Assembly: GCF_009914755.1 (NCBI RefSeq) | Contig: NC_060937.1 | Length of the DNA stretch: 64,000 bases | Origin: the human T2T-CHM13v2.0 reference genome, Homo sapiens | Direction: 5' to 3' (one strand) | Shown here: positions 22,711 through 24,102 of the stretch, one piece after another | Layout: the number at the start of each line of letters is the position of its first letter | Numbering within the stretch: position 1 is the first letter of the stretch | The notes under the pieces: generated by a model | Told to the model about the DNA's origin: nothing | Database searches by the model: none | What the model saw: only the letters and a program-made list of their open reading frames with translations | Translations under genes and position numbers: made by a program

Positions 22711-22736
22711 TAATTCCACTATTAGAAGGTCCAGTT

Positions 22737-22818
22737 GGTCTCCCATCCAAGCACTAACCAGGACCAACCCTGCTTAACTTCCGAGATCAGTCACGTTCAG
22801 GGTGGTATAGCCGCAGAC
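22737..22818 (-). pseudogene. 5S rRNA pseudogene (about nt 1-92 of 5S, 10-nt internal deletion, 3' truncated)
   Basis: Minus strand reads GTCTGCGGCTATACCACCCTGAACGTGACTGATCTCGGAAGTTAAGCAGGGTTGGTCCTGGTTAGTGCTTGGATGGGAGACC, matching human 5S rRNA (GTCTACGGCCATACCACCCTGAACG...). Confidence 0.95.
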
Positions 22819-23075
22819 ACTCGTAAGTGGGAGGTGAACAGTGAGAACACATGGACACAGGGAGAGGAGAATCACACGCCGGGGCCTGTCAGGGGGCAGG
22901 GGGCAAGGAGAGGGAGAGCATTAGGACAAATACCTAATGCATGTGGGGCTTAAAACCTAGTTGATAGGTACAGCAAACCACCATGACACATGCATACCTA
23001 TGTAACACACCTACACATTCAAAACATGTAACCCAGAACTTAAAGGAAAACGTAAAAAACAAAAACAAAAACAAA
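22819..23075 (+). mobile_element. L1PA (L1PA7/8-like) 3' end with A-rich tail, fused to the 5S copy
   Basis: gagaacacatggacacaggg...gcattaggacaaatacctaatgcatgtggggcttaaaacctag...cccagaacttaaag plus (A4-5C)n tail; shares TSD aaggtccagttg with the 5S copy. Confidence 0.9.
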
Positions 23076-23173
23076 AAGGTCCAGTTGATTCTGTTGTTTG
23101 CATAGATTTTTCCAAGACTCGTAGCTCTACTTAAGTGCAACTGTTCTTTCTAAAGGCACAGCAAACCCAGTAC

Positions 23174-23370
23174 CTCTTGGTCTCTCTCCATGCCCTGACT
23201 GTCTTGTAACCTTTTTGGCTTTGTCTTTCTCATCTTCCTGTGAGCCTTCTGTACAATCAGAAACACAACATGCTCCTTCTTCCCTGTCCTCTCCACTTCT
23301 TCATTCATGTCAAGAATGTCCATGATTACATCAATATCAAAGAAGTCTTTGGCCACAGCCTCAATGATAC
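23174..23370 (-). CDS. GUCY1B2: Exon 6 (197 nt) (G)IIEAVAKDFFDIDV...MERDQE
   Basis: ctgcag|GTATC...GAG|gtactg; matches ORF 23150..23356; end of H-NOX plus linker. Confidence 0.93.

Positions 23371-23771: not shown

Positions 23772-24102
<331 letters not shown>

What the first reader, a model, noticed from the sequence alone, without database searches (positions are those of the whole stretch)
22726..23087. Inverted 5S rRNA-L1 chimeric retrocopy inside a single TSD (possible twin priming on two different RNAs)
Seen in sequence: aaggtccagttg occurs at 22726-22737 and again at 23076-23087. Between the copies are an antisense 5S rRNA fragment (internal nt ~92 back to nt 1) and, head-to-head with it, a sense 5'-truncated L1PA 3' end with an A tail. 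The left junction tt|agaa resembles an L1 endonuclease site. The TSD end (ccagttg) partly matches the antisense of the next 5S bases (ccaggcg), giving microhomology at the priming point. Established: small-RNA/L1 chimeras (U6-L1, 5S-L1) are typically co-oriented, and L1 5' inversions arise by twin priming. Inference: here the second primer copied a different RNA (5S) in trans during one insertion event, an uncommon architecture that repeat annotation would report as two unrelated elements.
Basis: partly seen in the sequence, partly recalled or inferred. Interest (0 to 1): 0.7.

Follow-up and report, generated by a model that had tools for sequence, protein, structure and literature searches.

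The report
Known inverted 5S–L1 chimeric insertion
A backwards piece of 5S ribosomal RNA and the tail end of an L1 jumping gene sit inside one target-site duplication, likely copied into the genome in one event from both DNA ends, and this exact insertion and its mechanism are already in print.

Summary
An exact 12-nt duplication (22726-22737, 23076-23087) encloses antisense 5S nt 91→1 and a sense, 5'-truncated L1 3' end with an A tail. Neither part has its own duplication, and the two parts are equally diverged (8/81 vs 24/220). This very locus is a row of Table S2 of Law & Burns 2026 (L1PA8, 5S:2-98, same 12-nt TSD, called contemporaneous from a multi-mammal alignment). Twin priming on a second RNA was proposed by Doucet et al. 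2015 for snRNAs and by Law & Burns for antisense chimeras. The TSD end overlaps the 5S copy in 16 of 19 antisense chimeras, by 5 nt or more in 9 (null 4-11%). That favours base-paired internal priming over pre-cut RNA alone. At this locus the paired 5S bases are predicted helical, and the endonuclease site is only plausible. No uncatalogued chimera was found in 103 further loci slots examined.

The parts
22726..22737 (+). Left TSD copy; its 3' end (22731-22737) is the likely second primer and can pair with 5S nt 98-92
   Evidence: Table S2 hg38 chr13:51027760-51027771
22722..22727 (+). Possible L1 endonuclease site TT/AGAA, only if the TSD is 14 nt with one mismatch
   Evidence: Table S2 scores AG/AAGG, EN motif No
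22738..22818 (-). 3'-truncated 5S rRNA copy, nt 1 (22818) to nt 91 (22738), nt 26-35 deleted; RefSeq RNA5SP29
   Evidence: 8 differences in 81 nt
22818..22818 (.). Head-to-head junction; one base shared by 5S nt 1 and the L1 part, no filler, no 5S gene upstream flank
   Evidence: 24 of 28 L1 relatives aligned to the junction have TCT before it, the window has AGA
22818..23065 (+). 5'-truncated L1 3' end (L1PA8 in Table S2), with a 7-8 nt internal deletion
23054..23075 (+). Decayed poly(A) tail
   Evidence: sequence
23076..23087 (+). Right TSD copy
   Evidence: Table S2 hg38 chr13:51028110-51028121

Best explanation
A backwards 5S rRNA piece and an L1 3' end lie inside one 12-nt target-site duplication, likely written in one L1 insertion in which each nicked DNA end primed reverse transcription on a different RNA (twin priming in trans). 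Shown: the single TSD, the orientations, the 5S copy ending exactly at the mature 5' end, a 1-nt junction overlap, equal divergence. Inferred: (1) ORF2p nicked the bottom strand and copied about 250 nt of L1PA8 RNA from its poly(A); (2) the top-strand end 12-14 nt away annealed to 5S nt 92-98 and primed cDNA to nt 1; (3) the two cDNA ends were joined; (4) the insert has decayed neutrally since, in an intron of the GUCY1B2 pseudogene, with no function.
For: One TSD round both parts, none round either. Divergence 8/81 vs 24/220, Fisher p = 1.0. Table S2 flags the locus found_by_msa_prediction = 1 (legend). No 5S gene flank beyond nt 1, so the template was the RNA. TSD end pairs 5 WC + 1 wobble of 7, P = 0.004 at the fixed register. 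Class: TSD overlaps 5S in 16 of 19 antisense rows with TSD >= 7 nt, >= 5 nt in 9 of 19 (null 3.6-11.3%, P 6e-9 to 9e-5; 8 of 18 without this locus, P 9e-8 to 4e-4). Same geometry described for U1, U2, U5, U6 (Doucet 2015).
Against: 5S nt 91-95, 97 and 98 are predicted paired (unpaired probability <= 0.16), so the primer would have to invade a helix beside the loop at 87-90. The exact TSD gives a non-consensus endonuclease site. Table S2 shows C/T and A/G variation at the last two bases of the left TSD in other species, as a decayed 5S CpG would give; the true TSD may then be about 10 nt and the pairing only 4 WC pairs. Equal divergence has low power at 81 nt. No orthologue was seen here. I found no experimental reconstitution.
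Confidence: 0.82

Rival explanations
1. One event, but the 5S template was a pre-cut fragment ending near loop D, copied from the second DNA end with little or no pairing or captured by end joining.
For: Law & Burns suggest targeted processing at loops C and D. First templated bases cluster at nt 36-45 (9 of 19) and 86-91 (9 of 19). The paired stretch here is predicted helical. 3 of 19 rows show no overlap.
Against: The excess of TSD/5S overlap across the class. The same breakpoints occur in solo tailless copies, 47 of 81 at nt 38-43 and 23 of 81 at nt 86-92, for which Noll 2015 report no matching truncated RNAs and favour internal priming. The two models are not exclusive.
Confidence: 0.1
2. 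Two insertions at different times: a tailless 5S copy and an L1, one landing exactly at the edge of the other.
For: Solo tailless 5S copies are common (81 of 84 sampled copies are 3'-truncated, 52 with their own TSD) and L1 targets A-rich TSDs.
Against: No second TSD (best 4 nt), a flush 1-nt junction, equal divergence, the published co-arrival call, and 23 antisense against 4 sense rows in the class.
Confidence: 0.05
3. Template switch or RNA ligation joined L1 RNA to an antisense 5S transcript before or during ordinary reverse transcription.
For: Established for sense U6/L1 chimeras.
Against: It needs an antisense RNA ending exactly at 5S nt 1 and does not predict pairing of the TSD end with sense 5S RNA.
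Confidence: 0.03

Closest known systems
5S/LINE-1 chimeras, Law & Burns, Cell Genomics 2026 (PMC13174262), Table S2
   Same: This locus is a row of the table: hg38 chr13:51027852-51028099 L1PA8, 5S:2-98 antisense, same 12-nt TSD; all coordinates map to the window with one offset. Twin priming is named for antisense chimeras.
   Different: The paper leans to RNA processing for the breakpoints; the word stem 'microhomolog' has 0 occurrences in its main text. It scores the site as non-EN.
Inverted U1/U2/U5/U6-L1 chimeras by twin priming, Doucet et al. 2015 (PMC4476161)
   Same: 3'-truncated small RNA, opposite orientation, one TSD, complementarity with the insertion site, top-strand priming.
   Different: snRNAs only ('5S rRNA' 0 occurrences); their U5 truncations lie in a loop, here the paired bases are predicted helical.
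Tailless 5S retropseudogenes, Noll et al. 2015 (PMC5322556)
   Same: 3'-truncated 5S, target-site complementarity, the same breakpoint hot spots.
   Different: No L1 arm; the EN-like TSD end is more often on the 5S sense strand (31 vs 10, 11 ties, of 52), i.e. first-nick priming.
L1 5' inversions by twin priming (Ostertag & Kazazian 2001; seen only as cited)
   Same: Two primers, head-to-head join, one TSD.
   Different: There both primers copy the same L1 RNA.

Membership tests
Antisense 5S/L1 chimera | 5S copy within 50 bp of the L1 5' end | tested here: met
   directly abutting at 22818
Antisense 5S/L1 chimera | One TSD round both parts | tested here: met
Antisense 5S/L1 chimera | 5S antisense, start of 5S at the junction, 3'-truncated near nt 46 or 90 | tested here: met
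   nt 1 at junction, truncated at 91/92
Antisense 5S/L1 chimera | Both parts arrive on the same branch | not testable with these tools
   no relatives held for this genome; published flag = 1; divergence compatible
Twin-priming product | Complementarity of the TSD 3' end to the inverted template | tested here: met
   5 WC + 1 wobble of 7, P = 0.004 at fixed register
Twin-priming product | L1 endonuclease consensus in L1 orientation | tested here: inconclusive
   AG/AAGG exact; TT/AGAA with one mismatch
Twin-priming product | Poly(A) tail next to the right TSD | tested here: met
   23054-23075
Solo tailless 5S retropseudogene | TSD directly flanks the 5S copy on both sides | tested here: not met
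   best match 4 nt
Sense U6-type chimera (ligation or template switch) | Small RNA co-oriented with L1 and usually full length | tested here: not met
   antisense and truncated

The most novel reading that the evidence does not exclude
The 3' ends of inverted 5S arms are set by base pairing of the second-nick DNA end with intact 5S rRNA at or beside loops C and D, not by prior RNA cleavage, so these 23 insertions footprint which parts of 5S RNA are open to ORF2p in the germline.
Probability: 0.55. Interest if true: 0.33.

Novelty: already known. Interest (0 to 1): 0.15.

Why it matters
It is a clean example of L1 machinery using two different RNAs in one insertion, which bears on when the second strand is cut. 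The locus, the class and the model are published, so the finding itself adds nothing. The only increment is the class-level pairing count, which shifts weight from RNA processing to internal priming for 5S.

Tried and rejected
(1) Screen for uncatalogued chimeras. The A-run + antisense-5S pattern gave 24 matches at 19 distinct loci; 3 of 19 had a head-to-head L1 (L064, L073, L078), each matching a Table S2 row by chromosome, approximate place and 5S span. In the set not selected for an A run (84 of the 87 zero-mismatch loci among 495 matches; three were left out), 5 of 84 flanks hit the L1 reference loci; 2 (L105, L106) are head-to-head chimeras, both in Table S2, and 3 have their own TSD. Five loci are in both sets. 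The L1 reference covered only the last 1.7 kb or so. Of the 13 distinct loci only one (L108) was examined. (2) The idea that solo tailless 5S copies are also primed from the second nick arose and was rejected as selection by my pattern: the unselected set favours the first nick 31 to 10, 11 ties. (3) Separate TSDs for each part: none. (4) Primate orthologues: none held. (5) Function of RNA5SP29: 3 papers hold the whole word; I saw only the listing, and no title is about this locus.

Full report
Observation. The 12-mer AAGGTCCAGTTG lies at 22726-22737 and 23076-23087 and nowhere else in the window. Rfam finds 5S rRNA on the minus strand at 22713-22818, 32.6 bits, below the gathering score of 38. 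Alignment to the genome's own 5S gene (L002) gives nt 1 = 22818, nt 91 = 22738 and nt 98 = 22731, 78/88 identical, nt 26-35 deleted. The copy stops at the mature 5' end and has none of the gene's upstream flank. The L1 3' UTR begins at the same base, is 82-89% identical to 29 genomic copies and ends in an A-rich tail. The best exact repeat round 5S alone or L1 alone is 4 nt, round both 12 nt. The templated 5S part differs at 8 of 81 bases and the L1 part at 24 of 220 from the column majority of its relatives (Fisher p = 1.0): compatible with one age, though a weak test.

It is in print. Law & Burns 2026 (PMC13174262; I read the outline, sections 10, 18, 34 part 1 of 2 and 49, passages, part 1 of Table S2 and its first chr13 rows; passages of the bioRxiv version) list this locus: L1PA8 chr13:51027852-51028099:+, 5S:2-98 at 51027765-51027851:-, TSD 12 nt, found by proximity and by MSA prediction, EN motif No. 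These coordinates map to the window with one offset. By my count 23 of the 27 5S rows are antisense and 4 sense, 3 of the 4 without a TSD. The text says 5S segments are typically antisense, start at the junction and end near nt 46 or 90, and names twin priming for antisense chimeras. Doucet et al. 2015 (passages) drew the same model for inverted U1, U2, U5 and U6 copies, with complementarity to the insertion site. Noll et al. 2015 (passages) describe solo tailless 5S copies and argue for internal priming. Other supplements of these papers were not read. L1PA8 is about 40 million years old (recalled, no call).

Mechanism. Likely steps, all inferred: a bottom-strand nick and reverse transcription of L1 RNA from its poly(A) for about 250 nt; a top-strand nick 12-14 nt away; annealing of that end to 5S nt 92-98; cDNA synthesis to nt 1; joining of the two cDNA ends through one shared base. 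The last 7 TSD bases give 5 Watson-Crick pairs and one wobble with 5S nt 98-92 (P = 0.004 at that register, 0.40 at any register), and this register ties for best of all for the last 8 bases.

Class test. From Table S2 coordinates, the upstream TSD overlaps the annotated 5S in 16 of the 19 antisense rows with TSD of 7 nt or more (4 antisense rows with shorter TSDs were dropped), by 5 nt or more in 9. Simulated chance extension gives 3.6-11.3% for 5 nt or more, P 6e-9 to 9e-5; without this locus 8 of 18, P 9e-8 to 4e-4. Limits: the overlaps rest on the authors' annotation and multi-species TSD calls, and my null only approximates their scoring. Re-reading five catalogued loci in this genome reproduced the TSD clearly for two (L073/L107, L106), in part for one (L105), gave a different 12-nt TSD with one mismatch for L064 and nothing clear for L078. 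First templated bases cluster at nt 36-45 and 86-91, 9 of 19 each, as do the ends of solo copies (47 and 23 of 81), so the hot spots belong to the RNA and not to the chimeras.

Against. The paired bases at this locus are predicted helical, beside the open loop at 87-90. The endonuclease site is TT/AGAA only with a 14-nt TSD and one mismatch. The table's left TSD varies as C/T and A/G at its last two bases in other species, which suggests a decayed 5S CpG and a shorter TSD with weaker pairing. No orthologue could be read here.

Search for new members. 3 of 19 loci from an A-run-anchored pattern and 2 of 84 unselected 5S copies are head-to-head L1 chimeras; all five match Table S2 rows. The two sets share five loci, so 98 distinct loci were examined. 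The screens are partial: 100 of 495 matches were listed, exact-match patterns miss old copies, and the L1 reference was short.

Function. By the supplied annotation the insert lies in an intron of the transcribed pseudogene GUCY1B2, 86 nt from the exon at 23174-23370, with 5S in sense to that transcript. Nothing seen points to a function; three papers name RNA5SP29 (listing only).

Verdict. Interest 0.15.

Noticed in passing
window 22713-22818: The RefSeq bounds of RNA5SP29 equal the Rfam model span and reach 18 nt beyond the alignable 5S (22731) into flank and TSD.
   Followed up: yes
window 22793-22794 and about 22958-22960: Both arms carry a short internal deletion (5S nt 26-35; 7-8 nt in the L1 3' UTR); whether they arose at insertion or later is unknown.
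   Followed up: no
window 23773-24000: Alu-like element (SRP and mir-1268 model hits below gathering score).
   Followed up: no
L064 (G000:C1:233689841-233692879): A 12-nt TSD with one mismatch that overlaps 5S by 4 nt, where Table S2 lists a different 6-nt TSD for what appears to be the same locus.
   Followed up: partly
L085-L164 and five loci: Only 3 of 84 dispersed 5S copies with an intact 5' end are full length; most end at nt 42 (24) or nt 90 (15) with about 3 nt shared with the TSD.
   Followed up: yes
L063, 200-280 nt beyond 5S nt 1: A 10-mer matching the 5S copy recurs three times in a short tandem stretch near the copy.
   Followed up: no
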